Below, in pieces: positions 25,846-62,228 of a DNA stretch of 64,000 nucleotides; position 1 is the first letter of the stretch; the number at the start of each line of letters is the position of its first letter. The notes under the pieces were generated by a model. The model was given only the letters and a program-made list of their open reading frames with translations. It had not been told where the DNA came from and made no database searches. A program made the translations under genes and the position numbers. The stretch is taken from contig JAFMIZ010000002.1 of the NCBI GenBank assembly GCA_017853715.1, positions 20,128 to 84,127 on the forward strand. Reading direction: 5' to 3'. The stretch comes from Pedosphaera sp. GTDB lineage: Bacteria > Verrucomicrobiota > Verrucomicrobiia > Limisphaerales > DSYF01.

Positions 25846-26286
25846 CTAGGAAAGCAATTCCCTTGGCGCGATTTCCACCTTAGCCGCAATCTCCCCAGGA
25901 ATTTCGACCGCCTTCATCCTGCCCCCTTGGTGCGTCACGCACACAACGGTCAGCGTGCCGCGCGCCACTTCGACGGGGGATTCCGCATTTAGCTTGCGAA
26001 TGCGGAACTGATAGCTGAGCGATTTGGATTTCTTCTCCGCCACCAGCATGTGGACCTCGAATTCATCCTCGAAGCGCAACGGCTGCTTGAAATCGCACTC
26101 CGCCCGCACGCGCGGCCAGCCGACGGGCGGGTCCACCTGCCGCGTGACCACGGAGAAGCCCAGCGACCGGAAGAACTCATGTTCCGCCGCCTCCATGTAC
26201 CGGAAGAAATTCGAGTAGTGGACGATGCCCGCCATGTCCGTGTCCGAAAACTCCACCCGGCGGCGCACTTTGTATTCGTAAGGCAT
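25846..26286 (-). CDS. acyl-CoA thioesterase, 4HBT/YbgC-like hotdog fold
   Basis: 146-aa ORF. RRVEFSDTDMAGIVHYSNFFRYMEAAEHEFFRSLG is the typical N-terminal catalytic Asp region of 4HBT-class thioesterases. Confidence 0.8.
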   Translation of the reverse strand: MPYEYKVRRRVEFSDTDMAGIVHYSNFFRYMEAAEHEFFRSLGFSVVTRQVDPPVGWPRVRAECDFKQPLRFEDEFEVHMLVAEKKSKSLSYQFRIRKLNAESPVEVARGTLTVVCVTHQGGRMKAVEIPGEIAAKVEIAPRELLS

Positions 26287-26298
26287 GGAGGAATTTTA

Positions 26299-26322
26299 GA
26301 TTTGCGATTTACGATTTACGAT
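26299..26322. repeat. heptamer tandem repeat GATTTRC x3.4
   Basis: The sequence gatttgc gatttac gatttac gat lies in the 79-nt gap between the GT4 and thioesterase genes. Confidence 0.6.
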
Positions 26323-26365
26323 GGAATTCAGGAGTTTCCCTCCCGGGAGGGATCAGGGGGTTCCT

Positions 26366-27688
26366 TCACTTCGACCGGGGCCAGACCAGTTCGGCGTAGA
26401 GCTTCAACAATGAATCTGCCATGGCCTCCACGTGGTAGCGTTCAAAAACAACTTTGCGCGCCGCGTCACCGACCGCTCGCGCCCTGTCTGGCTGAACGAG
26501 CAACGCCTCGATTGCCCCGGCCAGTGATTTAGGATTCTCGGGTTCGCACAGGGCACCTCCGCTGGTTGACGCAACCAGCTCAGGGAACGCCGCCGTCCTC
26601 GGCTGCACGACCGGAACACCCGCCGCCAGTGCCTCGACCAGATAGAGGCCATACGCCTCGCCATAGCGGGCGGGCACGGAGAACACCGAAAGCGATTCCA
26701 AGAAACCAATCTTCTCGACCCGGCTGATGTTCGGCGAAAACACCGTCTCGCCGAGGTAGCCCGCTTCCGCCAGCAGCTTGCGCAACCCCTTCACGAAGGG
26801 TTCATCTGCCGGACCACAGCTCCCGGCGATATGCAGTTTGAGTCGCGGAACGCTCTCACGCCGTTTGAGATCAATGAACGCCTCCACCAAGGTATCCAGC
26901 CCCTTCTCCTTACACATCCGCGCCAGATACCCCACCACGGGAGCGGCATTCCGGGTCAACCGGCTTTCGCGCCGTGATCCCGTGACGCCCGTGTAGCCGT
27001 CCAGATTAATTCCGTTATGCACCACCTTCACGCGCGCCGGCTCCAAATTCAGCCGGCGAATCATCCGGTCCGCGAAGTAACGACTGGGCGCGATGAACAA
27101 ATCCACGTCCGCCGCGCGCTCGCCGACCAGTTGCCAGGCCGCCGCGCGATGCGACCCGGGCAGTGAATCCAGAAAGGCGTCCTCGCCCTGCAAGGTGCAG
27201 ACGATGCGGGTGTGCAATTCCGACTTGATGCGTCGCGCCATGCCCAGCAGCAGCGCATTCGAGAAACAGACAATGTCGGGCTGCGCGTGGCGCTTAAGCC
27301 ATTTGACCAAGTCCTCCAGTTCCCGCGCCTGACGACCCTCCTCGCCCCGCAACATGGACAGCGTCAATTCACCCAGTTCGGAAGCCTTGGTCTTGGCGGC
27401 GTGTACCCCAGCCCAATCAAGGATTCCGCGGGAAGAAACCAAGCGATGCAGGAAGCCGGGCGCGTGCCGCCAGAGCGAGAGCTTCTGGTCGAGATAAACA
27501 TTCACCCCGCCGAAGAACACTGGAGTGCCAGCGCTTTGATCCTCCTCATCCAAGGTGAGCGGCAGATAGAGCGGCACCATCGTCACGTCATGCCCCTGCC
27601 GCCGCAACTCCGCCACCAGCGCGTTGTCGCGGAAACAATTCCCGCAATACATCGCGCCTGCGCCGGGAGTCAGTTGGACAATGTTCAT
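26366..27688 (-). CDS. glycosyltransferase family 4 (GT-B, group 1)
   Basis: 440-aa ORF. The C-terminal half has the GT4 E-x7-E-type region (FSVPARYGEAYGLYLVEALAAGVPVV) and the N-terminal half is GT4-like. Confidence 0.85.
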   Translation of the reverse strand: MNIVQLTPGAGAMYCGNCFRDNALVAELRRQGHDVTMVPLYLPLTLDEEDQSAGTPVFFGGVNVYLDQKLSLWRHAPGFLHRLVSSRGILDWAGVHAAKTKASELGELTLSMLRGEEGRQARELEDLVKWLKRHAQPDIVCFSNALLLGMARRIKSELHTRIVCTLQGEDAFLDSLPGSHRAAAWQLVGERAADVDLFIAPSRYFADRMIRRLNLEPARVKVVHNGINLDGYTGVTGSRRESRLTRNAAPVVGYLARMCKEKGLDTLVEAFIDLKRRESVPRLKLHIAGSCGPADEPFVKGLRKLLAEAGYLGETVFSPNISRVEKIGFLESLSVFSVPARYGEAYGLYLVEALAAGVPVVQPRTAAFPELVASTSGGALCEPENPKSLAGAIEALLVQPDRARAVGDAARKVVFERYHVEAMADSLLKLYAELVWPRSK

Positions 27689-27765
27689 GAGTGTTTGATA
27701 AGCGTGCTCCGCTTTTTGTGACCACGCGCCACCAACAGAGCGAACCCGCCCTAAGTGACCCGCCC

Positions 27766-29055
27766 CTATACCTGCGCCAGCTGAAGTTTCGGATCAAACG
27801 GAAGCCCCAGCGCCAGTTCGTCCGGCAGCGGGCAAAACTCACGGATTCGCGCCCACAGGTGCGAGAAGTCCTTGTTCAAATCGCCCGACAGGCAGTCAGT
27901 GATTTCGTCCGCCGCTTCCGGATATTTCATGATGACATCCTTGAAGGAGAAGTCCGGGTTGTAAAAGGCATACACCAGCTTGCGCATGTTCTCGATGCTC
28001 CGGCGCAAGGCCACGCCGTAGTCCGTGAAGCGCTCCGGAGAGAAATCCCGCGCCACCAGCGCTTCATGCACCGCGTCACTTGCCATCACCCCGCTCTTCA
28101 AGGCCAGCAACAACCCACTGCTGAAAACCGGGTCCAAAAAGCAAAACGCATCGCCCGCCAGCAACAACCCCGGGCTGTAACAATGCCGCGAGTGATGGGT
28201 ATATTCACTGGTGAGGTAGTAAGGCCCGACCTGTTTGCCCACGGAAAGATGATCCTTGATCCAAAGGTTCTCCTCCACCTCACGATCAAAGATAGCCTTT
28301 GGTTCTTTCACCCCACCGCGCGCCAGATACTTGCCCTCCGCCACCACGCCCACGCTGACCATGTCATTGTGCTGCGGGATGTGCCAGAACCAGCCCTTGT
28401 CCGGAATCATCGCCACCGTGGTCTGGCCTTCATCGATGCCTTGCTCGCGCTTTGACCCTTGGTAATAGGTCCACACCGCCACTTTGTTGAGATAGGGGTC
28501 TTTGGCACGCCAACCGTTGCGCACCGCCGCGAAGCTCTCCTTACCCGAGCAATCCAACGTGATGGGCGCGCGGAATTCCATCAACGTACCATCCTTGCGG
28601 ATGGCCTTCACGCCGAGCACGGTCTCACCCTGGCGCACCAGTTCGCGCACGGCGATTTCCTCCATCACCTCAGCGCCCCGTTCACGCGCATGGTTGAGCA
28701 ACATCTCATCAAACTCACTGCGCAAGACCTGCCACGTTTGCGCGACGGTTTCCTTGTCGTAGCGAGTGAAGAAATAGAACGGCTGACTGGCCTGGCCATT
28801 GGGCTGGGTGAACTGGACGCTGAATTTCTTCTGAAATGCCGACCCTTTCAGCTTGGGGATCAGCCCCAGACGCTCCAGGGGCCCGTAGGTGAAAGGGATC
28901 ATGGACTCACCCACGTGATAACGCGGAAACTTTTCCCGCTCCAGGACAAGGACGCGGTGTCCCTGCCCGGCCAGCATGGCCGCCGCACTGGCCCCGGAGG
29001 GACCGCCACCGATGATGATCGCGTCCCAGTTAGTATCGGCAGTATTTGAAATCAT
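27766..29055 (-). CDS. FAD-dependent oxidoreductase, flavin-dependent halogenase-like
   Basis: 429-aa ORF. The dinucleotide fold is DAIIIGGGPSGASAA. GWFWHIP (nt 28375-28392) matches the WxWxIP motif. FCFLDPVFSSGLLLA matches the FxDPxFSSG-type second FAD motif. Confidence 0.7.
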   Translation of the reverse strand: MISNTADTNWDAIIIGGGPSGASAAAMLAGQGHRVLVLEREKFPRYHVGESMIPFTYGPLERLGLIPKLKGSAFQKKFSVQFTQPNGQASQPFYFFTRYDKETVAQTWQVLRSEFDEMLLNHARERGAEVMEEIAVRELVRQGETVLGVKAIRKDGTLMEFRAPITLDCSGKESFAAVRNGWRAKDPYLNKVAVWTYYQGSKREQGIDEGQTTVAMIPDKGWFWHIPQHNDMVSVGVVAEGKYLARGGVKEPKAIFDREVEENLWIKDHLSVGKQVGPYYLTSEYTHHSRHCYSPGLLLAGDAFCFLDPVFSSGLLLALKSGVMASDAVHEALVARDFSPERFTDYGVALRRSIENMRKLVYAFYNPDFSFKDVIMKYPEAADEITDCLSGDLNKDFSHLWARIREFCPLPDELALGLPFDPKLQLAQV

Positions 29056-29121: not shown

Positions 29122-32100
29122 TTAACCACCGACACCCACCAACTGACGCCTCGCCTCCTCAATCCATGCCTCATCGGGCAGCGCATACGGACGGAACGTC
29201 TCCAGCCAGCCTTCGTGGCCGTTCCAGAGGATCGCCCGGTGCAGCCCCAAATTGTTCGCCTGCGGCGACTCGATCAGACTCGCCGAGTCGTTCGCGCTCA
29301 TCTGGAACACCACGCGCATTTCAAATTCACTGACCGCCTTGCGGCTCAGCATGCGCATCAGGTTGTTGTAGGTGTCGCAGGTCGCGATCACATGGAAACC
29401 CAGCCCCGCGCCTTCCGTGACCAGCTGGTTGAACTGCAAACCCGGATTCGCGCCCGCATCGGCATCCAGCGAGAAACTCATCTCCTCGTCGAACTTGAGC
29501 TTCTTGTTCCGCTGCAGACCGTGAACCAGCAAAAAGGTCTCGGGCGCATCAGAGCCCGCATTATCTGCGCGTTGCTGCTGCTCGGCGGCCAAGTCGTTCA
29601 TCACCTCTTCCACGTCACCGGGGCGGACCAGTCTCACGTCATGCGGAATGATGGAGACGGCCAGCTCCAAGAACTTCGCCTCCGCCGAGTCCGGTGCGCT
29701 GCAATCAAACACCAGGAAGCGTGCGCCCGACTTGGGATACTGTGCCGCGAGTGAAATCAACGAGACCCCCAGCATGGCCAAAGCCGCTTCGTCGCGTTGA
29801 CCAATGATCAGGAGATGGCTGCCACTGGCGCGACGGAACAGGGCCTCGGTGGGGCCTTTGATGGAATTGGGCGCCCCCAGCCAAACGCGGGCGGCGGGCA
29901 CCGTCTCCCTGGGTGGCGAGGCGAGGGCAGCGCGCAGCATAAGATTGTCACGCACTTCAGCCGGGGCATTGCCCTCGAACACGATCGGCGCGCGCTGACC
30001 GAATTGCTTCAGTTCCGCAACCGCATGGGCCTTCTCCAACCACTGATCACGGGCCTGATCAGGCAGCCAGACGACTTGGAACGGGCTGTTGCCCTGAAGG
30101 GCGCCCGCATCGTCATTATAGATCGCCTCGCCCGGCCGGGAAAGCAACCGCGGCGCGGGGTTGTCCTCGTTCATGATGAGATACGCGTCGGCCTCGTTGC
30201 ATTGCAGCGCGATGCGCACCACCATCTGGCCCATCGTCGCACGGGCCAGCGTGTAGGCCCCGCCGAGCGTCTGCGAACCGAGGATCACGTGAATCCCAAA
30301 CGCACGACCCTGACGAACAATCCGGTCGAGCAGCAAGGACGCCCCCTGCGAAACGCGGTCATCCTCCACAAACAACTCCTGAAACTCGTCGATCAGGAGC
30401 AGCACGCGCGGCATCGGCTCGGCGCCGCCGGCGCGCTTATAACCGGCGATGTCCTGTGCGCCGAGTTTCCGGAACAGATCGCCGCGCCGCTTCAATTCCT
30501 CGTCCACGCGTTGCAACACGCTCAGGCCAAACTCACGATCGCTCTCAATGGCGATGACGCGGGCATGCGGCAGCTTCTTCGTCGCGTAGCACTTGAACTC
30601 GACGCCTTTCTTGAAATCCACGAGGTAGAACTCCACCTGCTCCGGACTGCACCACAGCGCCAGATTGGTGATGATCACGTGGAACAGAGTGGATTTGCCG
30701 GACCCCGTCTTGCCCGCGACGAGTGCGTGCTGACGGGTGCCCTTGCCGAGTGCGAGATACTGCAATTTCGTGGCACCCGTGCGGCCCACCGGCACGCGCA
30801 GCTCACTGGTGGTGTCGAGACTCCAGAATTCATTCTTCCCCGGAGCAACCTCAACGAAAGGCATCTCCACCCGGTTCGAATCAATGCTATCCTTGCCGAT
30901 CTGGTGCAGCAGCCGTGTGGCCTGCTCGGCGCCCGGCGGTCCGTCGAGCGTCAGCTTCAAGCCATCCCAGTTGGCATTCGCAAGGGCGAACCCCTCGCCC
31001 TTGGGCACGACGCTGAGCATGTTCTGGCGCAATTCTTCGGGGATGAACTCCATCGGCGCCGTCTTGCGCTGGTCCCAATGAATCAGCAGATGCACCCCGC
31101 AACGCGGTCCCGCAGCGGCAATGTTCATCAAGCGTTTCACCGCCACGTCGCTGAAGTTCGCGGGGAAGTCGGCGATGACGAGGAAATGGTATTTTTCGGC
31201 CATGCGCCCGGCCTGCGCATTGTATTCGGCGAGCGTCTCGTATTCGTTGCGCAGATACATCTGCGTGACCTTTTCGATGTGCTCGTTGAGGTCGACCAGG
31301 CGTTGCTCGAACTGCGCCTGCTGCGTCCAGATGCGGCTGTTGATCAACCGCTCCTCGAAGTCGGCCAGATGCATGAGGCCGGCAAAATTCTGTCCGAGCC
31401 CCACGGGATCAAAAATCGTGAACGCCAGGCGTCCCGGCGGAGCGCTGGTCAACAGCCGCAGAATCAGGTTGTTCAACGTGGCGATCACGCGGTCCTGCCC
31501 GGCCTGCTTGCTCTCGAACAAGAGCGACGCATGGCGGGGGACCTCCAGAAGCAGCGGCACCGTGAACCGACGCGGCCCGGGCAAAGTAAACCGCTCATCC
31601 TTGAGCGTGACGCCCGACAGCGTTTCGATGTCCACCGACACGCTGGCAAAGCGGGCGGCATGCGCGAAGTCGTCCGGCAGCGCGAATTGCTTCCAGCGGT
31701 CCGACGCCCAGTCAGGAAAGAGCTGCTCGGCCCACTGCGTCGTCGCCTCGATTTCAGCGTAGGCGGGCAGAACGATGTTCTGCCAATCCGCGGCCAAGGC
31801 CGCCAGGATTTCGTCACGCGCGGCAGTCAACCTGGCCAAGCCGTCGCGCTGAGCAGCCTCCAATTGAGCTTTGCGTTCCAAGGATTGCTCGGTGAGCTGA
31901 CGGACGAGCGTGGCGTGCTGGTGCTCCACCACTCCGAGCCGATGCAGCCGCCGCCCGTCGGTGACAGAATTCAGCCGCCGAGCCCGATCTTCCAAGCGTC
32001 GGCCCCAGTCGTCCCGGAGCGCTTTTGCTTCGACCTGCTTGTGTTTCCACAACCGGTTCAATTCGCCGATCTGACTGGCGTGCGTACTGGTGATCCTTTC

Positions 32101-33054
32101 CGTCTCAGCGGCAAAGCTGGCATCCGCTCTCTGCGCGCAGATGTCATGCAGTCTGGCGGCATCCGCCAGCGCGTTCGCCGCCGCTTTGGCCGGAACCGCC
32201 GCCAGCTTCCTGCCCAGGAAGTAGAGCGCGAAGACCAACACCAGTGCGCCTGCCACCCCCCCTCCCGTTGGCGGCAAAGGGGCGGCGTTGAAATCAAATC
32301 TCCGCAATGCCGGCACCAATATGAAGGGCGCGGCAAGAATCACCGGAACCCACAACCAGATGGGCAGCATCTTGAAGAAGAGCGGCAGCACGCGCGCGTT
32401 GATGGCGCCAAGCTGCTTGGACGCTTCCGCCAGCCGGGCGCGCATGATCTCAAGCAACACATCCTCGTGCTTAGAAACATCCAAAGAGGCCGGAGCCGAG
32501 GTGTGGGAAACCAATCTCGCCAGCGCTCCGTAAGCACCCAGTGAAGATGGAATATCCGCCTGCAGTTGCGCCAATTCGGCTTGGGCCTGAGCAAGATTGG
32601 TGTTGAAGGTCTCGTAGCGGGCCTTGTTCGCCGCCGTGTCGGTTTCGCGCACGCGATCCGCCTCGAGCAAATCGCGCTGTATCGCGAAGGTGTGGCGGCC
32701 CTCTTCAGCATCGATCTCCGCCATCTTGGCGATACGGGCGCTTCCCAGCGCCTTGGTCAGGCGCGCCTTGCGACTGGCGTATTGGGCCTCAATGCCGTTA
32801 CGGCGACGTTCCGTCTCCTCGCGAGCCGACTCCATATCCGTGGCAAAGCGGGAACGTTCAGCTTCGAGCGCCTGTTCGTATTGGGCACGCACGCGAGCTG
32901 TGCGCGTGGAATAATCCTTCTCCGCCGCCGCACTGCGCGTCACGACGTCGCGCACGCGGTCGCGCAGCTGGCCGAGGCGTTCGACGATGGCGCCGACACC
33001 CGCGAGCTTATTCGCAGTCGGAGCGGACTTGGTTGAGGGCTCGTTCAAGGGCAT
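29122..33054 (-). CDS. membrane-anchored multi-domain FtsK/SpoIIIE-family ATPase (EssC/EccC-like candidate)
   Basis: About 1310 aa. Canonical Walker A HALVAGKTGSGKST is at nt 30688-30717 and Walker B VLLLIDEF at about 30382-30405. It is flanked by two FtsK-like modules that lack the P-loop (SLLFESKQAGQDRVIATL and HLLIIGQRDEAALAML). Hydrophobic segments span aa 224-283. Long coiled-coil regions lie before and after them. I prefer the ATG at 33054; the track starts at a TTG at 33057. Confidence 0.85.
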   Translation of the reverse strand: MPLNEPSTKSAPTANKLAGVGAIVERLGQLRDRVRDVVTRSAAAEKDYSTRTARVRAQYEQALEAERSRFATDMESAREETERRRNGIEAQYASRKARLTKALGSARIAKMAEIDAEEGRHTFAIQRDLLEADRVRETDTAANKARYETFNTNLAQAQAELAQLQADIPSSLGAYGALARLVSHTSAPASLDVSKHEDVLLEIMRARLAEASKQLGAINARVLPLFFKMLPIWLWVPVILAAPFILVPALRRFDFNAAPLPPTGGGVAGALVLVFALYFLGRKLAAVPAKAAANALADAARLHDICAQRADASFAAETERITSTHASQIGELNRLWKHKQVEAKALRDDWGRRLEDRARRLNSVTDGRRLHRLGVVEHQHATLVRQLTEQSLERKAQLEAAQRDGLARLTAARDEILAALAADWQNIVLPAYAEIEATTQWAEQLFPDWASDRWKQFALPDDFAHAARFASVSVDIETLSGVTLKDERFTLPGPRRFTVPLLLEVPRHASLLFESKQAGQDRVIATLNNLILRLLTSAPPGRLAFTIFDPVGLGQNFAGLMHLADFEERLINSRIWTQQAQFEQRLVDLNEHIEKVTQMYLRNEYETLAEYNAQAGRMAEKYHFLVIADFPANFSDVAVKRLMNIAAAGPRCGVHLLIHWDQRKTAPMEFIPEELRQNMLSVVPKGEGFALANANWDGLKLTLDGPPGAEQATRLLHQIGKDSIDSNRVEMPFVEVAPGKNEFWSLDTTSELRVPVGRTGATKLQYLALGKGTRQHALVAGKTGSGKSTLFHVIITNLALWCSPEQVEFYLVDFKKGVEFKCYATKKLPHARVIAIESDREFGLSVLQRVDEELKRRGDLFRKLGAQDIAGYKRAGGAEPMPRVLLLIDEFQELFVEDDRVSQGASLLLDRIVRQGRAFGIHVILGSQTLGGAYTLARATMGQMVVRIALQCNEADAYLIMNEDNPAPRLLSRPGEAIYNDDAGALQGNSPFQVVWLPDQARDQWLEKAHAVAELKQFGQRAPIVFEGNAPAEVRDNLMLRAALASPPRETVPAARVWLGAPNSIKGPTEALFRRASGSHLLIIGQRDEAALAMLGVSLISLAAQYPKSGARFLVFDCSAPDSAEAKFLELAVSIIPHDVRLVRPGDVEEVMNDLAAEQQQRADNAGSDAPETFLLVHGLQRNKKLKFDEEMSFSLDADAGANPGLQFNQLVTEGAGLGFHVIATCDTYNNLMRMLSRKAVSEFEMRVVFQMSANDSASLIESPQANNLGLHRAILWNGHEGWLETFRPYALPDEAWIEEARRQLVGVGG

Positions 33055-33217
33055 CAATGTTGTTCACGGCAGCATTCACGCCGCCCATCAGTTCTTCGAT
33101 GAATCGCTTCTCGAATTCAAGGGCCTTGGCATCGCGCCAGGAATCCTTGGTCGCGGCCCAGTCTGCGACCAACTGCTTGGTGAGTCCAAGCAATCTGTTC
33201 TTGGTGGCGCTGGTCAT
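33008..33217 (-). CDS. 69-aa helical protein with W-x-D hairpin motif (WXG100-like, paralogous to the 90-aa protein)
   Basis: An ATG at 33217 opens MTSATKNRLLGLTKQLVADWAATKDSWRDAKALEFEKRFIEELMGGVNAAVNNIDALERALNQVRSDCE. Composition and codon usage look genuine. SWRDAKALEFEKRF shares W0, D2, F8 and F12 spacing with the 90-aa protein. The 3' end overlaps the ATPase start by 47 nt. Confidence 0.55.
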   Translation of the reverse strand: MTSATKNRLLGLTKQLVADWAATKDSWRDAKALEFEKRFIEELMGGVNAAVNNIDALERALNQVRSDCE

Positions 33218-33392: not shown

Positions 33393-33938
33393 TCATGGGT
33401 TCGATTCCTCCCCGCTTTGCCCGTTGGCCGGCGGTTCGCCCACAGGCTTCGGCGCAGAACCGGCCACGGATATTTCACTGTATTCAGCCAGGGTCTTGAT
33501 GACTTGATCCAAGTAGGCCAGGGCGTTCGCCAGATCGTGGGAAATGTTGTGCCGGAATTTCTCCACCTGCTTGGCCACCGGCTCAACCCGCTGGTCGTAT
33601 TGCCGGTTCCAAACCTTGACCACCCGCAGCTTATCCTCGGCGGCGCGCAACTCGTGGCGTGCCCTTTGCACTGCCTGCTGTTGAACAAAGGAGGCGTCGC
33701 GCATCCCGGAAATCTGCGCGCTGAACAACTCCTGCTGGCGCATCTCCAGCTCCTTGTGCTTTCGCCGAATCTGGCCCTCCCAAAAGGTGATGCGGTCGTT
33801 CTCGAGCCACATCCGCGTGCGCAACACCTCTTCTGACACCTCGTCGATCACCCGCCCCGCTTTCTCGCGATACACGATGAGCCGCGAGCGAAAGGCTTCA
33901 ATGGCTTCAAGCGAAGTGACTTTGGCGCGTTCAGGCAT
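33393..33938 (-). CDS. 181-aa helical protein containing a WEGQ (W-x-G) motif and a disordered acidic/Pro-rich tail
   Basis: I chose the ATG at 33938 (MPERAKVTSLEAIEAFRSRLIVYREKAG). The protein contains ...RITFWEGQIRRKHKELEMRQQELF... and ends in SAPKPVGEPPANGQSGEESNP. It sits between the two small W-x-D genes, on the same strand. Confidence 0.65.
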   Translation of the reverse strand: MPERAKVTSLEAIEAFRSRLIVYREKAGRVIDEVSEEVLRTRMWLENDRITFWEGQIRRKHKELEMRQQELFSAQISGMRDASFVQQQAVQRARHELRAAEDKLRVVKVWNRQYDQRVEPVAKQVEKFRHNISHDLANALAYLDQVIKTLAEYSEISVAGSAPKPVGEPPANGQSGEESNP

Positions 33939-33953
33939 GGGGGCGACGGTGAT

Positions 33954-34036
33954 AGTTGCAGGTTGCAGGTTGTAAGCTGCCGGTTGGCTCCGCCGCTGCA
34001 TCTGCAACCTGCAGCTTGAAACCTGCAACTTGAAAC
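33954..34036 (-). promoter_or_regulatory. long imperfect inverted repeat (intercistronic hairpin) between the 90-aa and 181-aa genes
   Basis: The reverse complement of the left arm agttgcaggttgcaggttgtaagctgc (33954-33980) is gcagcttacaacctgcaacctgcaact. The right arm is gcagcttgaaacctgcaact (34011-34030). The gcagcttNNaacctgcaac core matches at 17 of 19 positions. The spacer is about 30 nt. The tgcaggttg / caacctgca motif occurs four times. Confidence 0.5.
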
Positions 34037-34054
34037 GGGCGGGCGGTCATCGGG

Positions 34055-34327
34055 TCAGTGTTGATCGAGATACTCCTCGATCCGCTTCGCTTTGCGGAGC
34101 AGGAAGGGCGTTTGGACGTTCGAGGCTTCGATAAAGCGCTTGAGCACTTTCATCGTGTCGCGGAATTCCTCGGCGAACTTGGCGTGCTCCTGGTCTGACC
34201 ACGTGTCGCCGAGGGCGGCAAAGCGCGCTTGCAGGAGTGACATCCGGTTCTGCAGCTCGATATTGAACCGCTTGAGCTCCTCGGCGAACCGGCGGACTTC
34301 GCCGGGGTCCATTATGGCTTGTGGCAT
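34055..34327 (-). CDS. 90-aa WXG100-like (ESAT-6/EsxA-like) helical hairpin protein
   Basis: An ATG at 34327 is preceded by AGGAAG 4 nt upstream. The sequence is MPQAIMDPGEVRRFAEELKRFNIELQNRMSLLQARFAALGDTWSDQEHAKFAEEFRDTMKVLKRFIEASNVQTPFLLRKAKRIEEYLDQH. The central TWSDQEHAKFAEEF aligns with NWEGQAFSRFEEQF of S. aureus EsxA (sequence from memory). Size and predicted helix-turn-helix layout fit WXG100. Confidence 0.7.
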   Translation of the reverse strand: MPQAIMDPGEVRRFAEELKRFNIELQNRMSLLQARFAALGDTWSDQEHAKFAEEFRDTMKVLKRFIEASNVQTPFLLRKAKRIEEYLDQH

Positions 34328-38324: not shown

Positions 38325-41300
38325 CTAGGGTGACAATTTGACGCGATAAAACCGCTGCGGCACTCCCGGAATGGACGCATCCTCATAGCCCAGAGTCATT
38401 TGGAGCGGGCCAGCGTTGGTGGCCGAATTCGGGATATCCGTCCACGGTCCGGCTGCCCAGCTACTTTGTTGGACCTGATAACTGCGTCCCGGCATCGAAT
38501 TCCAGTGCAGCACGGCCTGGCCCGCAGAAACCGAGAGGGCTTGAACGACGAACCCAAGTTGGGGGTCAAGGCGATCGAACAATCCATCCGCGTTGGCATC
38601 CATCAGTGCTGCTGTGGGGATGACGAAGAACTCGCCGGGGTCGAGGTTTGGCCCGGAACCGGCGGGCGACTGATTGACCAAAGGGCTGCCGTCAGCAGTT
38701 CCATACGCGGCGGCGGCGATGTAAATATTCGTCGGCACCGCACCGAAAGCCGACGCGAGATCGATGACACCCTCGAACACGCCGCTGGTTGACGATGACT
38801 TGGCAATCTGCGAGCCGCTGCCAGCATTGTTCCAAACCACGTAACTGTTCTGGCTCTCCGTGGCCATGTAGGGCTTGGTGTTGGTCACCGCCACAGTGCC
38901 CGCTTTGGACCAAGGCGCGCCCACAGAGCCAGAGGGCAAGAGAGCATCACTGACGAAGAGGTAATGGTCATTCGGTCCAGTGGTGCCGGGGGATTGCGTG
39001 GCGACGTAGAGTTTGGTGCCGCGCAACGCGGCGAAGAGCCCGAGGCCGTTGCTCGACACGCGATAGCCCGCGAAGTCCAGCAAGCCGTCCAAACTAAAAG
39101 GCGGATAGTTGGTGGGAACAGCCCCCGGGCTCACCGCAAAGTGCCAGTCTGAGCCACCGTTGTTGTCCCAAGTGCCCGCGCCGTTGTTGAACACGCAATC
39201 CAACTGCGTCGCGTTCGCCGGGATGCTCGCCCTGTATTCCCACCAGTTCGAGTCTGCATTGTAAGTCATGACCGGGTCGGGAGTCAGCACGGTGCCGCCC
39301 TGCCAGTTGTTGTAGCCGAGGTGAAGGTAAACCGGATTCGCCGAGGCAAGGTTACGCCCAGCGGGATTGTATCGGATGGTCACGTTGCTGCCGGCGACGG
39401 GATTGGTCGGCGAAAGGGTCACCACCGTGCCACCCCCACCGCCCGTGTCCGAACCCGCGCCTGAATCCACCCAAACATGCTGGATGTCGCTCTGATGAAC
39501 GTTGCCTTTGCCATCGGTGGCGCTGACGTAGTAGTCGAGCAGGACGTTCGTGTAACCCGTGACCTTCGCCCAGTAATAATCCGCCATGGCTGCCGGGGTG
39601 AGGAAGAAATCGACGCTCCCGTTGCCGGTGATGTTGCCCGGGGGGATGGTGCGCTTGGTCATGGGCAATGGCACCCACGCGCCAACGCCGGGGCCACCGG
39701 CATAAGTGTCGTTGGCGTTGTCAGCCAGCGGATTCACGCCGTCGCTGTCGGCCCGGACATAAAGCGTCACGTTCGTCACACCGCTTACGTCGAACACCTG
39801 CGTCCAGATGTGAAAGGCCGTGGAGTAAGGGGGACGCCCCTCAAACCCAACCGGCTGATAACCCGTCAGCGGCCCCCAACCTTTGCCGCCCGGATTCCAC
39901 GGGAAGCGTTGCGGCTTGAAGACGGTGGGCGGCGTCTGGTCGAGGGCAGCGTTGCCAATGACATTGGTCGCGAAAACCATCGCACGGTTTACGGCGAGCG
40001 TCTGCTTCACTTCATCGTCGAGGGACGTGCCGTAATACATGAAGCCGCTGTCCAAGCCGCCGAGGTAATAATGCCACGCCTGCTCGACTGCGTTGGGATT
40101 GTTGTTCACGCCCGAGCGGCTGACGGGTTCCTGAATCTTCCACGTCTGCACGGTGCCGCCGTTGCTGATGTGAATCTGCTCAGCCGTCTCGCAGTAATTG
40201 GCCCCGGCCACGAGCACGGCCCAATTCCGCCAATCCTCCGTCCAGCCGGGCGTTTCAAGATCATACCACGTGCGCGGATCGGTGGCGTTGTAGGCGGGGT
40301 CGCTCGAAGCGCGCGTAGGCGGCCAAAGCCAGTTGATGAACTGCGGATGGCCCCAGTCACCGGCAGCATTCACCCACGCGCCGTCTTCGACATGGACGAC
40401 GGCATTGGCGGGCACGGGATGGTCAGCGAGGAACTGCTGGATGGTGGTGGGGCGATAGCCCTTCGCCGCAGCGGCATTGAACAAACCAGGCACTGATTCC
40501 TGATAATAGCTGTTGCCGCCGCCCCAGGCGTTGTCCCCGTCGTGCGCCATCAGGACGATGCTCGGTCGTGCCGGGTCGTTGAAGGGCGCGATGTGCGCGT
40601 CGATGTCGCCCGTGCCCATCGTGCCGAACCCGTTTTGGTAGCTGAGCAAGTCGCACATCGGCACCACGGTGATGAAGCTCTCGGCACCGTTGGCCGGATT
40701 CACGTATTTGGTCCGATGCGCCTGGTAGGCGAATGGGGCCGGGAACGCACCGCCGCGCCCGTCAATCGTGCCATTCCACCACTGGTTTGCGGGAACCGTT
40801 GGCCCGACTTGGTCCCCGCGATTGGGCGGATCACAGTTCCAGCCGCTATTCCCCTTCTGCGCCACGTCGAGATAGTTAGAACACGTGCGGGCGAGGTGAC
40901 TATTGGCAATGATGCTCCACTCGTAGCCCTCTTCAGCGAGGATGGGGATGATCGTTTCGGAGAACGCAGCCTCAATCGGCCAGAATCCTTTCGAGTGATC
41001 ACTTTTGTCGGGATTGCCGCCCCAACTTTTCCACCAAACCTCCTTGAAGATTTGAATTTCCTTCCGCAGAACGCTTTTCGGCAGCAACGGACTGAACGCG
41101 TGGTGATACGTCTGCCCCACCATGTCCGCCCGAGGATAGCCACCCGTGGTGCGATACGTCGCCGATGAACCGCGGGCCGTCGTGTAGCCGCTGTTCCAAC
41201 CGGAACCGTAGCCATACATGCCCGCGCTGCCGAGTGACCAGATATTCTCCTGCAACGCTCCGGAGTAGCTGACCGAAGCGCCGCCATCAGGATGCGAGAG

Positions 41301-41675
41301 AATGGTGTTGATGGAACTCAAACCACCGCCCTGATAGGCCTGGACCCGGTCCGCCTTGTCGAAGACCGCATCAAATTCGCCACCGTCACCGCTGACGAGG
41401 GCGTTGCGCGGATGTTTGTAGGTTGATCCAGGATAGAAGTTGCCCGCGTTGGCCAGCTTCAAATTGATGGAGTCCGCCGCGAACTGGTAACGATTCGTCT
41501 GGCTGCCATTCGGATTACGCTCCGGCCAGTAAATTGGCTGGTGCAAATGCCAGTGGCAGGCCAAGTGAACCGAGTTGTTCGCTTGAGCCGCGGGCAGAGC
41601 GGCTGCCAGCAACGCCAGCGCCCGCAGAACTGTAAGGGACAACTTCATGTCTTGGGACAAAGCTTTCAACGTCAC
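38325..41675 (-). CDS. secreted glycoside hydrolase family 57 (alpha-glucan-active) with starch-binding-like domain and C-terminal FYRVKLSP module
   Basis: 1116-aa ORF with a signal peptide (LRALALLAAALPAAQA). GH57 regions: HLACHWHLHQPIYW (HQP), GFWPIEAAFSE (nucleophile Glu context), MAHDGDNAWGG (acid/base Asp context). A CBM25/53-like segment reads VYLHLGYNNWQGG ... VFNNGAGTWDNNGGSDWHF. Confidence 0.8.
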   Translation of the reverse strand: MTLKALSQDMKLSLTVLRALALLAAALPAAQANNSVHLACHWHLHQPIYWPERNPNGSQTNRYQFAADSINLKLANAGNFYPGSTYKHPRNALVSGDGGEFDAVFDKADRVQAYQGGGLSSINTILSHPDGGASVSYSGALQENIWSLGSAGMYGYGSGWNSGYTTARGSSATYRTTGGYPRADMVGQTYHHAFSPLLPKSVLRKEIQIFKEVWWKSWGGNPDKSDHSKGFWPIEAAFSETIIPILAEEGYEWSIIANSHLARTCSNYLDVAQKGNSGWNCDPPNRGDQVGPTVPANQWWNGTIDGRGGAFPAPFAYQAHRTKYVNPANGAESFITVVPMCDLLSYQNGFGTMGTGDIDAHIAPFNDPARPSIVLMAHDGDNAWGGGNSYYQESVPGLFNAAAAKGYRPTTIQQFLADHPVPANAVVHVEDGAWVNAAGDWGHPQFINWLWPPTRASSDPAYNATDPRTWYDLETPGWTEDWRNWAVLVAGANYCETAEQIHISNGGTVQTWKIQEPVSRSGVNNNPNAVEQAWHYYLGGLDSGFMYYGTSLDDEVKQTLAVNRAMVFATNVIGNAALDQTPPTVFKPQRFPWNPGGKGWGPLTGYQPVGFEGRPPYSTAFHIWTQVFDVSGVTNVTLYVRADSDGVNPLADNANDTYAGGPGVGAWVPLPMTKRTIPPGNITGNGSVDFFLTPAAMADYYWAKVTGYTNVLLDYYVSATDGKGNVHQSDIQHVWVDSGAGSDTGGGGGTVVTLSPTNPVAGSNVTIRYNPAGRNLASANPVYLHLGYNNWQGGTVLTPDPVMTYNADSNWWEYRASIPANATQLDCVFNNGAGTWDNNGGSDWHFAVSPGAVPTNYPPFSLDGLLDFAGYRVSSNGLGLFAALRGTKLYVATQSPGTTGPNDHYLFVSDALLPSGSVGAPWSKAGTVAVTNTKPYMATESQNSYVVWNNAGSGSQIAKSSSTSGVFEGVIDLASAFGAVPTNIYIAAAAYGTADGSPLVNQSPAGSGPNLDPGEFFVIPTAALMDANADGLFDRLDPQLGFVVQALSVSAGQAVLHWNSMPGRSYQVQQSSWAAGPWTDIPNSATNAGPLQMTLGYEDASIPGVPQRFYRVKLSP

Positions 41676-41696
41676 CTTAGCTGCCCGAGCCGTGGC

Positions 41697-41728
41697 TCAA
41701 CACCGCATTTTCGTGCGGTTGTTTGAGA
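41697..41728. promoter_or_regulatory. imperfect palindrome in the divergent GH57/GH13 intergenic region
   Basis: ctcaacaccgca (41697-41708) pairs with tgcggttgtttgag (41715-41728). The accgca/tgcggt core is perfect and the outer arm pairs with two bulged T residues. It lies in the 104-bp gap between the two divergent start codons. Confidence 0.3.
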
Positions 41729-41779
41729 GGCTCAGCCCCTTAGACTACACTTGCCACGCGCAACCTTGATTCGCACCCC

Positions 41780-62225: not shown

Positions 62226-62228
62226 TGC

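What the first reader, a model, noticed from the sequence alone, without database searches (positions are those of the whole stretch)
29122..33054. Unusual architecture of the FtsK/SpoIIIE ATPase: coiled coil, TM hairpin, coiled-coil stalk, then degenerate / active / degenerate modules
Reading the protein directly gives the following layout. Residues 1-220 are charged and heptad-like (AEKDYSTRTARVRAQYEQALEAERSRF...). Residues 224-283 hold two or three hydrophobic segments (LPLFFKMLPIWLWVPVILAAPFILVPAL, GVAGALVLVFALYFLG). Residues 290-440 look like coiled coil again. Module 1 (about aa 500-665) has SLLFESKQAGQDRVIATL where a P-loop should be, but keeps a strand-plus-Asp element (YHFLVIADF). Module 2 (about aa 770-960) has canonical Walker A and B motifs. 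Module 3 (about aa 1075-1290) has HLLIIGQRDEAALAML in place of the P-loop, with RFLVFD and FHVIATCD. EccC/EssC proteins run TM, a degenerate ATPase-like DUF, then D1-D2-D3. This protein would have one ATPase module fewer. It also has a long N-terminal cytoplasmic coiled coil instead of the FHA domains of EssC. That combination is not one I recognise from characterised T7SS ATPases.
Basis: partly seen in the sequence, partly recalled or inferred. Interest (0 to 1): 0.65.

Follow-up and report, generated by a model that had tools for sequence, protein, structure and literature searches.

The report
Membrane-anchored EssC-like ATPase with WXG100 partners
This gene encodes a real, widely conserved membrane-tethered motor protein of Verrucomicrobia and Planctomycetes that resembles the ATPase of type VII secretion systems but has only one working engine flanked by two dead ones and sits on a very long helical stalk; relatives of this layout have been described by computer analysis, none has been tested.

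Summary
ORF 29122-33054 (-) encodes a 1310-aa protein. It has a 152-residue N-terminal helix, a two-helix membrane hairpin, a ~160-residue stalk helix, and three FtsK/RecA-like modules. Only the middle module keeps Walker A and B motifs. AlphaFold models plus Foldseek match all three modules to EccC D1-D2-D3. The N-terminal region is conserved in homologues down to 27% identity, so it is not a mis-fusion. A canonical heptad repeat could not be shown.

The gene ends a four-gene cassette: a 90-aa WXG100 protein, a 181-aa helical protein, a 69-aa divergent WXG100-like protein, then the ATPase. All three small genes are present in 63 of 67 testable Verrucomicrobiota loci and in the planctomycete Kolteria novifilia. 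Nothing else nearby is conserved.

The layout is not unprecedented. Bell et al. 2024 described EssC homologues with three ATPase domains, only the central one active, a >200-aa N-terminal coiled coil and two WXG100 partners. Those proteins lack membrane helices. The window protein is homologous to one such plasmid protein (E=4e-72). The PVC-clade form is therefore a membrane-anchored, stand-alone variant.

The most likely role is ATP-driven handling or export of WXG100 proteins at the inner membrane. This is untested.

The parts
34055..34327 (-). Gene A. A 90-aa WXG100-family protein with W-S-D in place of W-x-G and a conserved C-terminus PFLLRKAKRIEEYLDQH. First gene of the cassette.
   Evidence: Pfam WXG100 29.4 bits, above the 27.3 cutoff. 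Its length is 90 aa in 67 of 68 homologues. It is 63-89% identical across Verrucomicrobiota loci and 47% identical to the Kolteria homologue. The family profile hits the annotated WXG100 protein of the Caballeronia plasmid at E=6e-27.
33393..33938 (-). Gene B. A 181-aa soluble protein of unknown family with one conserved Trp (W-E-G in the window).
   Evidence: No significant Pfam, NCBIfam or PADLOC hit. Present in 64 of 67 testable loci at 35-64% identity. It is 26% identical to the Kolteria 200-aa neighbour, E=8e-18. It occupies the position of the coiled-coil/nuclease fusion in the Caballeronia locus. No sequence similarity to that 436-aa protein was detected.
33008..33217 (-). Gene C. A 69-aa divergent WXG100-like protein (D-S-W-R-D, C-terminal DCE). 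It overlaps the ATPase start by 47 nt.
   Evidence: Present in 64 of 67 testable loci. The consensus keeps W..Tk..W.DaK...DCE. The family profile hits the Caballeronia WXG100 protein at E=2.4e-6. The Kolteria 74-aa homologue matches at E=2e-5.
29122..33054 (-). Gene D. A 1310-aa membrane-anchored EssC/EccC-related FtsK-family ATPase. This is the finding.
32542..32997 (-). N-terminal long helix, aa 20-171 (Ala- and charge-rich).
   Evidence: AF2 gives a single helix with pLDDT mostly above 90. The length of the N-terminal region is conserved: median 213 aa, IQR 207-222.
32203..32379 (-). Membrane hairpin. TM1 is aa 226-251 and proline-rich. The loop RFDFNAAP is aa 252-259. TM2 is aa 260-284.
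   Evidence: Hydropathy and AF2. 56 of 77 representatives have two hydrophobic segments at the same position. Soluble plasmid homologues have none there.
31720..32202 (-). Stalk helix, aa 285-445, continuous with TM2.
   Evidence: AF2 helix 260-445. The distance from the end of the TM to the M1 motif is 265 aa (median), IQR 262-268, in 95 sequences. Sequence identity here is only about 17%.
30850..31659 (-). Module 1, aa 466-735. A degenerate FtsK-like module. ESKQAGQDRV lies at the P-loop position and HFLVIADF at the Walker B position. It has conserved family motifs DPVGLGQNF, QMYLRNEY and EYNAQAG.
   Evidence: AF2 with Foldseek. hhalign versus EccC D1 E=1.5e-4 and in-register alignment with M2. 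27% of columns are at least 80% conserved.
29995..30849 (-). Module 2, aa 736-1020. The only catalytic module. Walker A is GKTGSGKS (30691-30714). Walker B is LLLIDEFQE (30376-30405). The RIALQC...RLLSRPGEAIYND region is 30112-30222.
   Evidence: Pfam FtsK_SpoIIIE 2e-31. NCBIfam EccCa D1 region 9e-33. PDB EccC D1. hhalign D1 1e-22. Motifs are 80-100% conserved in 78 sequences.
29125..29994 (-). Module 3, aa 1021-1310. A degenerate FtsK-like module. GQRDEAAL lies at the P-loop position and FLLVHGLQ at the Walker B position. It keeps the RVVFQMSANDSASLI motif.
   Evidence: hhalign versus M2 95%, E=2e-8; versus EccC D3 9e-6 and D2 4e-5. AF2 with Foldseek.

Best explanation
Gene D is the motor of a stand-alone, four-gene WXG100/EssC-like cassette (A-B-C-D). 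The cassette is conserved across the Planctomycetota-Verrucomicrobiota (PVC) group.

Shown here:
- The protein has two membrane helices at the tip of two very long helices (about 150 and 160 residues).
- Three stacked FtsK/RecA-like modules follow.
- Only the middle module keeps the ATP-binding and hydrolysis motifs. That module is closest to domain D1 of type VII secretion ATPases.
- The two dead modules and the length of the stalk are under strong purifying selection.

Inferred:
- Like other FtsK-family proteins, it works as a hexamer.
- The middle ring burns ATP.
- The first dead ring plays the structural, inter-protomer role proposed for the EccC DUF domain.
- The last dead ring docks the conserved C-terminal tail of the WXG100 protein, as EccC D3 does.
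- The motor delivers helical-hairpin dimers of proteins A and C, perhaps with B, to or through the ring of twelve membrane helices into the periplasm.
- The fixed-length helical hairpin would transmit motion between the motor and the membrane, or form the conduit.
For: Architecture.

Motifs and conservation: there is a single Walker A across the family, and Walker A, Walker B and the Arg-finger region are fully conserved.

Similarity of M2: it is closest to EccC/EssC D1 (NCBIfam EccCa 114 bits against FtsK 34 bits).

Partners: WXG100 protein A passes the Pfam threshold. All three small cassette genes are present upstream of the ATPase in 63 of 67 testable Verrucomicrobiota loci and in Kolteria novifilia. 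No other gene is conserved within 6 kb on either side.

Selection: A is 63-89% identical while the ATPase N-terminal region (aa 1-480) is 22-48% identical. Stalk length is fixed to within 3 residues at about 17% sequence identity.

Topology: the TM hairpin is present in the PVC clade but absent from soluble plasmid homologues.

Distribution: at least 559 species representatives carry a relative, and there are 875 clusters (50% identity) at E<=1e-30.

Host: a diderm with LptF/G in the same window.

Literature: EccC D3 and EssC bind WXG100 C-terminal signals (PMC11217815). The DUF is a degenerated ATPase thought to act in inter-protomer contacts and pore gating (PMC11154593).
Against: - No experiment exists for any member. 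Reviews state that such Gram-negative WXG100/FtsK pairs are not confirmed as secretion systems (PMC10765036).
- None of the accessory membrane components of T7SSa or T7SSb was found. No outer-membrane component is linked.
- The closest described relatives are soluble and sit in defence-type loci, for which 'a different mechanism appears likely' (PMC11090510).
- The stalk would hold the motor up to about 20 nm from the membrane. This is unlike any solved T7SS.
- The hexamer, the docking of A on M3 and the pore are all inferences.
Confidence: 0.5

Rival explanations
1. The cassette is a conflict or defence module rather than a secretion system. Like its soluble relatives in TerY-P and CoCoNuT loci, the ATPase would remodel or deploy the small helical proteins inside the cell. 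One example would be driving WXG100-type proteins into the cell's own membrane as an abortive-infection or stress response. The TM hairpin would merely localise the machine.
For: - The M1-M2-M3 block is homologous to the Caballeronia pSBC2-5 protein, which is flanked by VWA, CARF, PP2C and Ser/Thr kinase genes (28% identity over 783 columns, E=4e-72).
- It is also homologous to a Rhodococcus plasmid protein next to TerD genes (E=3e-104).
- Bell et al. place such ATPases in CoCoNuT type III-A extensions.
- One family variant (P0033) carries an N-terminal Ser/Thr kinase and has FHA-domain neighbours.
- No outer-membrane partner is linked.
Against: - The cassette is near-universal in its host lineage and looks vertically inherited. 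It sits in housekeeping neighbourhoods that differ between genomes.
- Protein A is extremely conserved, which is unlike typical defence genes.
- PADLOC gives only generic FtsK-core hits.
- B lacks the nuclease domain of the CoCoNuT-associated counterpart.
Confidence: 0.22
2. It is a DNA translocase. That would make it an FtsK paralogue for chromosome segregation or a conjugative DNA pump, as many database records name it ('Cell division protein FtsK').
For: - Pfam FtsK_SpoIIIE domain.
- Foldseek hits to the FtsK motor and to the TcpA coupling protein.
- Source annotations.
Against: - M2 scores far higher with EccC/EssC models than with FtsK (114 and 110 bits against 34 bits).
- No FtsK gamma domain or any DNA-binding domain was found.
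- There are two TM helices, not the four or five of FtsK.
- It is invariably linked to WXG100 genes.
- It is not on mobile elements in PVC genomes. The only plasmid and phage hits are distant.
Confidence: 0.05
3. The long N-terminal region is an annotation artefact. It would be a separate upstream gene fused by a wrong start or a sequencing error, with the real protein starting at an internal Met.
For: - The first 16 residues are poorly modelled.
- The start overlaps gene C by 47 nt.
Against: - There are no in-frame stops.
- GC3 is 0.78 across the ORF.
- Full-length homologues of about 1300 aa from two phyla align from about residue 15-30 onward.
- The lengths of the N-terminal region and the stalk are conserved.
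Confidence: 0.02

Closest known systems
EssC-like FtsK ATPases of Type III-A CoCoNuT / TerY-P triad loci (Bell et al., eLife 2024, PMC11090510; Anantharaman, Iyer and Aravind 2012 as cited there)
   Same: - Three tandem FtsK-like domains with only the central one predicted active.
- A long N-terminal helical or coiled-coil region in place of FHA domains.
- An operon with two WXG100-type proteins, one canonical and one divergent, plus a coiled-coil protein.
- Direct homology was shown here to a member in such a locus. The ATPase matches at E=4e-72. The protein A profile matches its WXG100 protein at E=6e-27.
   Different: - Those proteins are described as lacking transmembrane helices. The two plasmid homologues checked have none.
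- The window protein has a TM hairpin and a second ~160-aa helix inserted between the N-terminal helix and module 1.
- B has no nuclease domain.
- There are no VWA, kinase, phosphatase or McrBC genes nearby.
- The cassette is chromosomal, stand-alone and lineage-wide in PVC bacteria.
EccC (T7SSa) and EssC (T7SSb) type VII secretion ATPases
   Same: - Two TM helices followed by a stalk and stacked FtsK-like modules.
- The first module is degenerate, like the DUF.
- The catalytic module is most similar to D1.
- A WXG100 gene lies adjacent.
- The whole cytoplasmic region superposes on EccC D1-D3 (E=2.3e-33).
   Different: - Three modules, not four.
- One Walker A instead of three in the actinobacterial EccC homologues checked here.
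- A ~220-aa N-terminal helical region instead of nothing (EccC) or FHA domains (EssC).
- A stalk of about 160 residues.
- No EccB/D/E/MycP or EssA/EssB/EsaA/EsaB partners were found.
- The host is a classical LPS diderm.
- NCBIfam scores are far below the EccC/EssC cutoffs.
Helicobacter pylori 'WXG100 secretion system' cluster (HP0062/HP0066; PMC4978471)
   Same: A WXG100 gene plus an FtsK/SpoIIIE-family gene in a Gram-negative. That paper calls this a minimal type VII set.
   Different: It was not compared by sequence here. The cluster contains a DnaK homologue and an HNH nuclease, which are absent from the window cassette.
FtsK / SpoIIIE DNA translocases
   Same: The RecA-like motor fold and motifs of module 2. 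M1 keeps a D-P-x motif at the position of the M2 strand; FtsK's D-P-K comparison rests on my recollection, not on an alignment. M3 keeps an R-V-x-F-Q-x-S motif like the one I recall from FtsK (not aligned here).
   Different: No gamma domain. Triple-module layout. WXG100 linkage. Much weaker sequence scores.

Membership tests
Type VII secretion ATPase (EccC/EssC) | Membrane-bound FtsK/SpoIIIE-family ATPase whose catalytic domain groups with D1 | tested here: met
   Two TM helices. M2 versus the EccCa D1 region 9e-33, versus EssC 8e-32, versus FtsK 9e-9. hhalign D1 1e-22.
Type VII secretion ATPase (EccC/EssC) | Four cytosolic domains: DUF plus three FtsK/SpoIIIE ATPase domains (PMC11154593) | tested here: not met
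   Only three alpha/beta modules follow the stalk. There is one Walker A, against three in seven of the eight actinobacterial EccC homologues checked (P0035-P0042; P0036 matched two). NCBIfam scores of 99-114 bits fall far below the cutoffs of 347-778.
Type VII secretion system (any subtype) | WXG100-family protein encoded with the ATPase | tested here: met
   Gene A scores 29.4 bits on Pfam WXG100, above the 27.3 cutoff. It is linked in 63 of 67 testable loci.
Type VII secretion system (T7SSa or T7SSb) | Subtype-specific membrane partners (EccB/D/E, MycP; or EssA, EssB, EsaA, EsaB/YukD) | tested here: not met
   No such Pfam families were found among the 34 window proteins scanned. No gene other than A-D is conserved within 6 kb on either side in 80 loci. 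Partners encoded elsewhere in the genome cannot be excluded.
Type VII secretion system | ATPase-dependent export of WXG100 substrates | not testable with these tools
   This needs fractionation or secretome work in a cultured carrier.
CoCoNuT/TerY-P-associated EssC-like ATPase (Bell et al. 2024) | Three ATPase domains with only the central one active | tested here: met
CoCoNuT/TerY-P-associated EssC-like ATPase (Bell et al. 2024) | Long N-terminal coiled coil (can exceed 200 aa) replacing FHA domains | tested here: inconclusive
   The N-terminal region is about 220 aa and includes a 152-aa helix. Heptad periodicity was not significant.
CoCoNuT/TerY-P-associated EssC-like ATPase (Bell et al. 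2024) | No transmembrane helices | tested here: not met
   A TM hairpin at aa 226-284 is conserved in the PVC clade. It is absent in the Rhodococcus and Caballeronia homologues.
CoCoNuT/TerY-P-associated EssC-like ATPase (Bell et al. 2024) | Sequence homology to a member located in a VWA/kinase/phosphatase locus | tested here: met
   Caballeronia pSBC2-5: 28% identity over 783 columns, E=4e-72. Its WXG100 protein matches the protein A profile at E=6e-27.
CoCoNuT/TerY-P-associated EssC-like ATPase (Bell et al. 2024) | Embedded between VWA genes next to McrBC-type or TerY-P genes, with a coiled-coil/nuclease fusion | tested here: not met
   The neighbours are mfd, an FAD halogenase-like gene, a GT4 gene and similar. 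B is 181 aa with no nuclease domain.
FtsK/SpoIIIE DNA translocase | C-terminal gamma (winged-helix DNA-recognition) domain and a multi-TM N-terminal domain | tested here: not met
   No Ftsk_gamma hit at E<=1. Only two TM helices.

The most novel reading that the evidence does not exclude
A hexamer of this one protein is a complete, self-sufficient type VII-like translocon.

- Its six helical hairpins (twelve Ala-rich, non-heptad helices of fixed length) would form a ~20-nm alpha-barrel conduit.
- The conduit would run from the single active ATPase ring to a pore made of the twelve proline-rich membrane helices.
- It would export WXG100 dimers into the periplasm of classical diderm bacteria without any accessory membrane protein.

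This would be the minimal form of type VII-like secretion. It would bear directly on the open question of what forms the T7SS channel.
Probability: 0.12. Interest if true: 0.85.

Novelty: new variant of a known kind. Interest (0 to 1): 0.5.

Why it matters
Reviews in the held library describe type VII secretion as a system of Actinomycetota and Bacillota (PMC11217815). They treat WXG100 plus FtsK pairs in Gram-negatives as rare and unconfirmed (PMC10765036).

This work changes that picture in two ways:
- A membrane-anchored EssC-like motor with its WXG100 partners is a lineage-wide, strongly conserved four-gene unit. At least 559 species representatives encode the module-1 signature (the 80 listed are almost all labelled Verrucomicrobiota); full-length homologues occur in Planctomycetota.
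- It is the membrane-bound sister of the soluble ATPases recently noticed in CoCoNuT and TerY-P defence loci.

The cassette has no accessory membrane proteins and occurs in cultured strains. It is therefore a simple system for three questions:
- Can an EssC-type ATPase form a translocation channel by itself?
- What do degenerate ATPase rings do?
- What do WXG100 proteins do in classical diderms?

If it turns out not to secrete anything, that would also redefine what the WXG100/EssC pairing means.

Tried and rejected
1. Heptad or coiled-coil periodicity. A Fourier test at 3.4-3.75 residues and a best-register a/d contrast in 28-residue windows gave no signal above shuffles for aa 20-171 or 285-445. 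I therefore report long helices, not a proven coiled coil.

2. Is module 1 the EccC DUF? hhalign against a DUF profile from eight actinobacterial EccCs gave nothing (E 0.28), while D1 gave E=1.5e-4. A PDB sequence search with the M1 profile gave only chance hits. The DUF profile was shallow, so the question stays open.

3. A second Walker A in module 1 of representative P0055. On inspection it is a chance match (ANTPSGKT) in the strand region, not the P-loop.

4. Linkage of the downstream FAD halogenase-like, GT4 and thioesterase genes to the cassette. It is found only in the three closest loci and was rejected.

5. Other conserved neighbours. There are none within 6 kb on either side, using four reference loci.

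6. Known defence systems. PADLOC gave only generic FtsK/HerA core hits.

7. Mobile-element origin. Only distant plasmid and phage hits were found. These hits did lead to the CoCoNuT/TerY-P relatives.

8. Literature on T7SS in Verrucomicrobiota or Planctomycetota. There is no dedicated paper in the held library. Anantharaman et al. 2012 could not be read.

9. Covariation of N-terminal length with stalk length as a test for helix pairing gave r=0.17, which is uninformative.

Full report
THE GENE AND ITS START

The window carries a 3.9-kb ORF on the minus strand (29122-33057). The first in-frame codons are TTG-ATG. The ATG at 33054 gives a 1310-aa protein starting MPLNEPS, the same start as homologues P0003, P0008 and P0012. 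All residue numbers below count from that ATG. GC3 is 0.78 over the ORF. The surrounding 64 kb holds ordinary chromosomal genes. They include argS, a GAF histidine kinase, lptF/G, IMPDH, hflX, mfd, ptsI, cinA and a DUF1559/N-methyl protein. The best matches are Limisphaerales/Verrucomicrobiota. The host is therefore a classical LPS diderm.

CHECKING THE ARCHITECTURE: N-TERMINAL HALF

Kyte-Doolittle analysis finds two hydrophobic segments, aa 221-253 and 262-289. An AlphaFold2 model of aa 1-480 was built on a 34-sequence family alignment (pLDDT 83.6). It has these elements:
- one uninterrupted helix, aa 20-171
- a short helix, aa 176-184
- a pre-membrane helix, aa 197-221
- a proline-rich TM1, about aa 226-251
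- an eight-residue loop, RFDFNAAP
- a single helix, aa 260-445, comprising TM2 and a stalk of about 160 residues

Foldseek matches for this model are weak (E about 1e-3). All the named examples among them (Rad50, MukB and SMC arms, dynein stalks, chemoreceptor cytoplasmic domains) are long antiparallel two-helix hairpins. That fits the two long helices packing against each other with the TM hairpin at the tip. With two TM helices, both long helices and the ATPase modules lie on the cytoplasmic side.

Two crude tests for heptad periodicity did not exceed shuffled controls. The helices are Ala-rich (19-21%) and highly charged. I therefore treat 'very long helices' as shown and 'canonical coiled coil' as not shown.

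CHECKING THE ARCHITECTURE: C-TERMINAL HALF

An AlphaFold2 model of aa 440-1310 (pLDDT 80.8) has three alpha/beta modules. Foldseek aligns the whole model to the three-domain cytoplasmic region of Thermomonospora curvata EccC (4nh0) over 918 columns, E=2.3e-33. Next come EccC and EssC D2-D3 structures, the FtsK motor and TcpA.

By sequence, only the middle module is visible to Pfam (FtsK_SpoIIIE, 2e-31), NCBIfam and the PDB. It matches D1 of EccC best. Profile-profile comparisons give the following:

| Module | EccC D1 | EccC D2 | EccC D3 | EccC DUF |
|---|---|---|---|---|
| M1 | 1.5e-4 | 0.079 | 0.1 | no match (0.28) |
| M2 | 1e-22 | 8e-17 | 1e-7 | no match |
| M3 | 0.0029 | 4e-5 | 9e-6 | no match |

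The DUF profile was shallow. Within the protein, M3 aligns to M2 at 95% probability (E=2e-8, 229 columns). M1 aligns to M2 weakly but in register.

SLLFESKQAGQDRV (M1) and HLLIIGQRDEAAL (M3) lie on the P-loop. HFLVIADF and TFLLVHGLQ lie on Walker B. RFLVFD aligns with the strand after the P-loop helix and is not Walker B.

All 34 close relatives have one Walker A. Among 77 diverse full-length representatives, 73 have one. Of the four extra matches, one was inspected and is a chance hit, and the others lie outside module P-loop positions. In 78 sequences, Walker A, Walker B (DEFQE), GSQT and the RIALQC...RLLSRPGEAIYND region are 80-100% conserved. The P-loop positions of M1 and M3 never carry GK[ST].

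The dead modules are not decaying. They are 46% and 42% identical to the window on average, against 69% for M2 and about 17% for the helices. In M1 and M3, 27% and 20% of columns are at least 80% conserved.

IS THE N-TERMINAL REGION PART OF THE PROTEIN?

Yes. Thirty-four proteins of 1283-1659 aa cover 67-100% of the query; 32 of them cover at least 96%. A search of 1.84 billion cluster representatives with aa 1-743 found 875 clusters at E<=1e-30. The full-length ones (about 1300 aa) align from about residue 15-30 to 740 at 27-40% identity. They include proteins from Planctomycetales, Phycisphaerae and Kolteria novifilia.

Lengths are tightly kept. The distance from the end of the TM hairpin to the DPxGLG motif of M1 is 265 residues (median), with an interquartile range of 262-268. 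The N-terminal region is 213 residues (207-222). The stalk behaves like a spacer of fixed length.

GENE CONTEXT

Upstream on the same strand lie three small genes:
- Gene A (34055-34327, 90 aa) passes the Pfam WXG100 threshold (29.4 against 27.3 bits). It has W-S-D where WXG100 proteins have W-x-G.
- Gene B (33393-33938, 181 aa) matches no known family.
- Gene C (33008-33217, 69 aa) overlaps the ATPase start by 47 nt. Its family profile hits an annotated WXG100 protein at E=2.4e-6, so it is a divergent WXG100-like protein.

The 80 best are almost all labelled Verrucomicrobiota and include Chthoniobacter flavus Ellin428, Verrucomicrobium sp. BvORR106 and a Kiritimatiellia MAG.

In 63 of the 67 loci with enough upstream sequence, A, B and C all precede the ATPase in the same order. 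A is 63-89% identical across these loci, while the ATPase N-terminal region (aa 1-480) is only 22-48% identical. A is 90 aa in 67 of 68 homologues, with a conserved C-terminus P-y-LLRKAQRIEeYL. Using four reference loci, no other gene within 6 kb on either side is shared by more than a few genomes. The same four genes occur in the planctomycete Kolteria novifilia Pan216. There, A is 47% identical, B matches at E=8e-18 and C at E=2e-5. No homologue of the T7SSa or T7SSb accessory membrane proteins was found in the window proteins scanned.

RELATION TO WHAT IS KNOWN

Reviews place T7SS in Actinomycetota and Bacillota (PMC11217815). They mention that a limited number of Gram-negatives carry a WXG100 gene next to an FtsK/SpoIIIE gene, and that these are not functionally confirmed as secretion systems (PMC10765036). 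Sutcliffe 2011 is cited for Verrucomicrobia among others (PMC6471051).

A tblastn search of plasmids with module 1 led to two distant homologues:
- A Rhodococcus plasmid protein of 1322 aa lies next to TerD genes. It is 31% identical to the window protein over aa 521-1295, E=3e-104.
- A Caballeronia plasmid protein of 927 aa is 28% identical over aa 536-1290, E=4e-72. Its locus reads VWA - WXG100 - 436-aa coiled-coil protein - two small proteins - ATPase - CARF - VWA - PP2C - Ser/Thr kinase. Its WXG100 protein matches the protein A profile at E=6e-27.

This is the locus type analysed by Bell et al. (eLife 2024, PMC11090510). They describe EssC homologues with three ATPase domains of which only the central one is predicted active. 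[quoted passage not shown] They come with two WXG100 proteins (one with and one without the WxG motif) and a coiled-coil/nuclease fusion. The authors note that these ATPases lack TM domains, so 'a different mechanism appears likely'. They also note that Anantharaman et al. [quoted passage not shown] I could not read that 2012 paper.

The two plasmid homologues have no TM-grade hydrophobic segment, whereas the Kolteria protein does. The degenerate/active/degenerate layout and the long N-terminal helix are therefore family traits that have already been described in silico. Three things distinguish the window's clade:
- the TM hairpin plus a second long helix
- the loss of the nuclease on B
- the stand-alone, lineage-wide chromosomal cassette

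MECHANISM

Shown:
- a membrane-anchored, three-ring FtsK-like protein with a single catalytic ring that is D1-like
- two conserved pseudo-ATPase rings
- a fixed-length helical hairpin with TM helices at its tip
- obligatory genetic linkage to two WXG100-type proteins and one helical protein

Inferred from FtsK, EccC and EssC biology:
- It works as a hexamer.
- M1 acts like the DUF, a degenerated ATPase proposed to act in inter-protomer contacts and pore gating (PMC11154593).
- M3 docks the conserved C-terminal tail of A, as EccC D3 binds the EsxB signal.
- ATP hydrolysis in M2 moves A/C dimers to or through the twelve TM helices.

I rate export or membrane delivery of WXG100 proteins at about 0.5. 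The main rival, at about 0.2, is an intracellular conflict or stress function like that suspected for the soluble relatives. One family variant fused to a Ser/Thr kinase and flanked by FHA proteins supports that rival. The phylum-wide conservation in unrelated housekeeping contexts and the extreme conservation of A argue against it. A DNA-translocase role is unlikely. A mis-fusion is excluded for practical purposes.

VERDICT

The novelty is less than it appeared. This is a membrane-anchored, stand-alone variant of an EssC-like ATPase/WXG100 cassette whose soluble form has been described computationally, and no member has been studied experimentally. Its very wide distribution in Verrucomicrobiota and Planctomycetota, its minimal gene content and its presence in cultured strains make it a good experimental target. 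Interest is moderate at 0.5.

Noticed in passing
window 33939-34054 (- strand), between genes A and B: The 116-nt gap holds a long imperfect inverted repeat (GUUGCAGGUU...AACCUGCAAC). As RNA it folds into a stem-loop of about 27 bp, -42.4 kcal/mol, though z is only -1.6 against shuffles. In most related loci A and B are only about 3 nt apart, so the hairpin is specific to the window's close clade. It could set a higher A:B-C-D expression ratio.
   Followed up: partly
L002 8001-12980 (protein P0033, 1659 aa) and neighbours: One family variant carries an N-terminal Ser/Thr protein kinase domain in front of the helical region. It is flanked by FHA-domain proteins, one of them an FHA-kinase fusion, and no WXG100 gene was called nearby. 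This echoes the FHA, kinase and phosphatase regulation of other T7SS subtypes and of T6SS.
   Followed up: partly
L085 5501-9469 (Rhodococcus sp. AH-ZY2 plasmid): The 1322-aa homologue has no TM segment. By eye, its N-terminus looks like a TerD-type domain; this rests on recollection of the TerD consensus and no domain search was run. It sits next to TerD and DUF475 genes, and its small helical partners (314, 73 and 87 aa) lie downstream rather than upstream of the ATPase.
   Followed up: partly
window 25846-29055 (- strand): Directly downstream of the ATPase lie a Trp-halogenase-like FAD enzyme, a GT4 glycosyltransferase and a 4HBT thioesterase. The halogenase follows the ATPase only in the three closest relatives (L008, L009, L013), so it is not part of the cassette.
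   Followed up: yes
window 32302-32379 (TM1, aa 226-251): The first membrane helix is unusually proline-rich (FFKMLPIWLWVPVILAAPFILVPALR), and several of the prolines are nearly invariant in the close family. The short loop keeps an R-x-F-D-F motif. This suggests a kinked or gating helix rather than a plain anchor.
   Followed up: partly
L006, L009, L011, L028, L067 and others: Several contigs that carry the Verrucomicrobiota-type cassette are titled 'uncultured Bifidobacterium sp.', 'Candidatus Acidoferrum', 'Limnocylindrales', 'Omnitrophota' or 'Bacteroidetes bacterium'. These are probably mislabelled or mis-binned MAGs rather than real occurrences in those phyla.
   Followed up: no
window 38325-45826: Two very large secreted-looking carbohydrate-active proteins face each other. 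One is 1116 aa with GH57 and CBM53/CBM25 modules. The other is 1348 aa with an alpha-amylase domain and a bacterial TSP3 repeat.
   Followed up: no
window 60001-64000: AT skew rises to 0.25-0.28 over the last 4 kb, against about 0 to 0.1 elsewhere. This region holds three long minus-strand ORFs (59182-63965) that I did not examine.
   Followed up: no
P0043, P0044, P0045: Other long FtsK/SpoIIIE proteins (1284-1805 aa) with a single Walker A turned up as distant hits. One of them has FHA domains. Single-engine multi-module relatives of EccC/EssC may be more varied than the family studied here.
   Followed up: no
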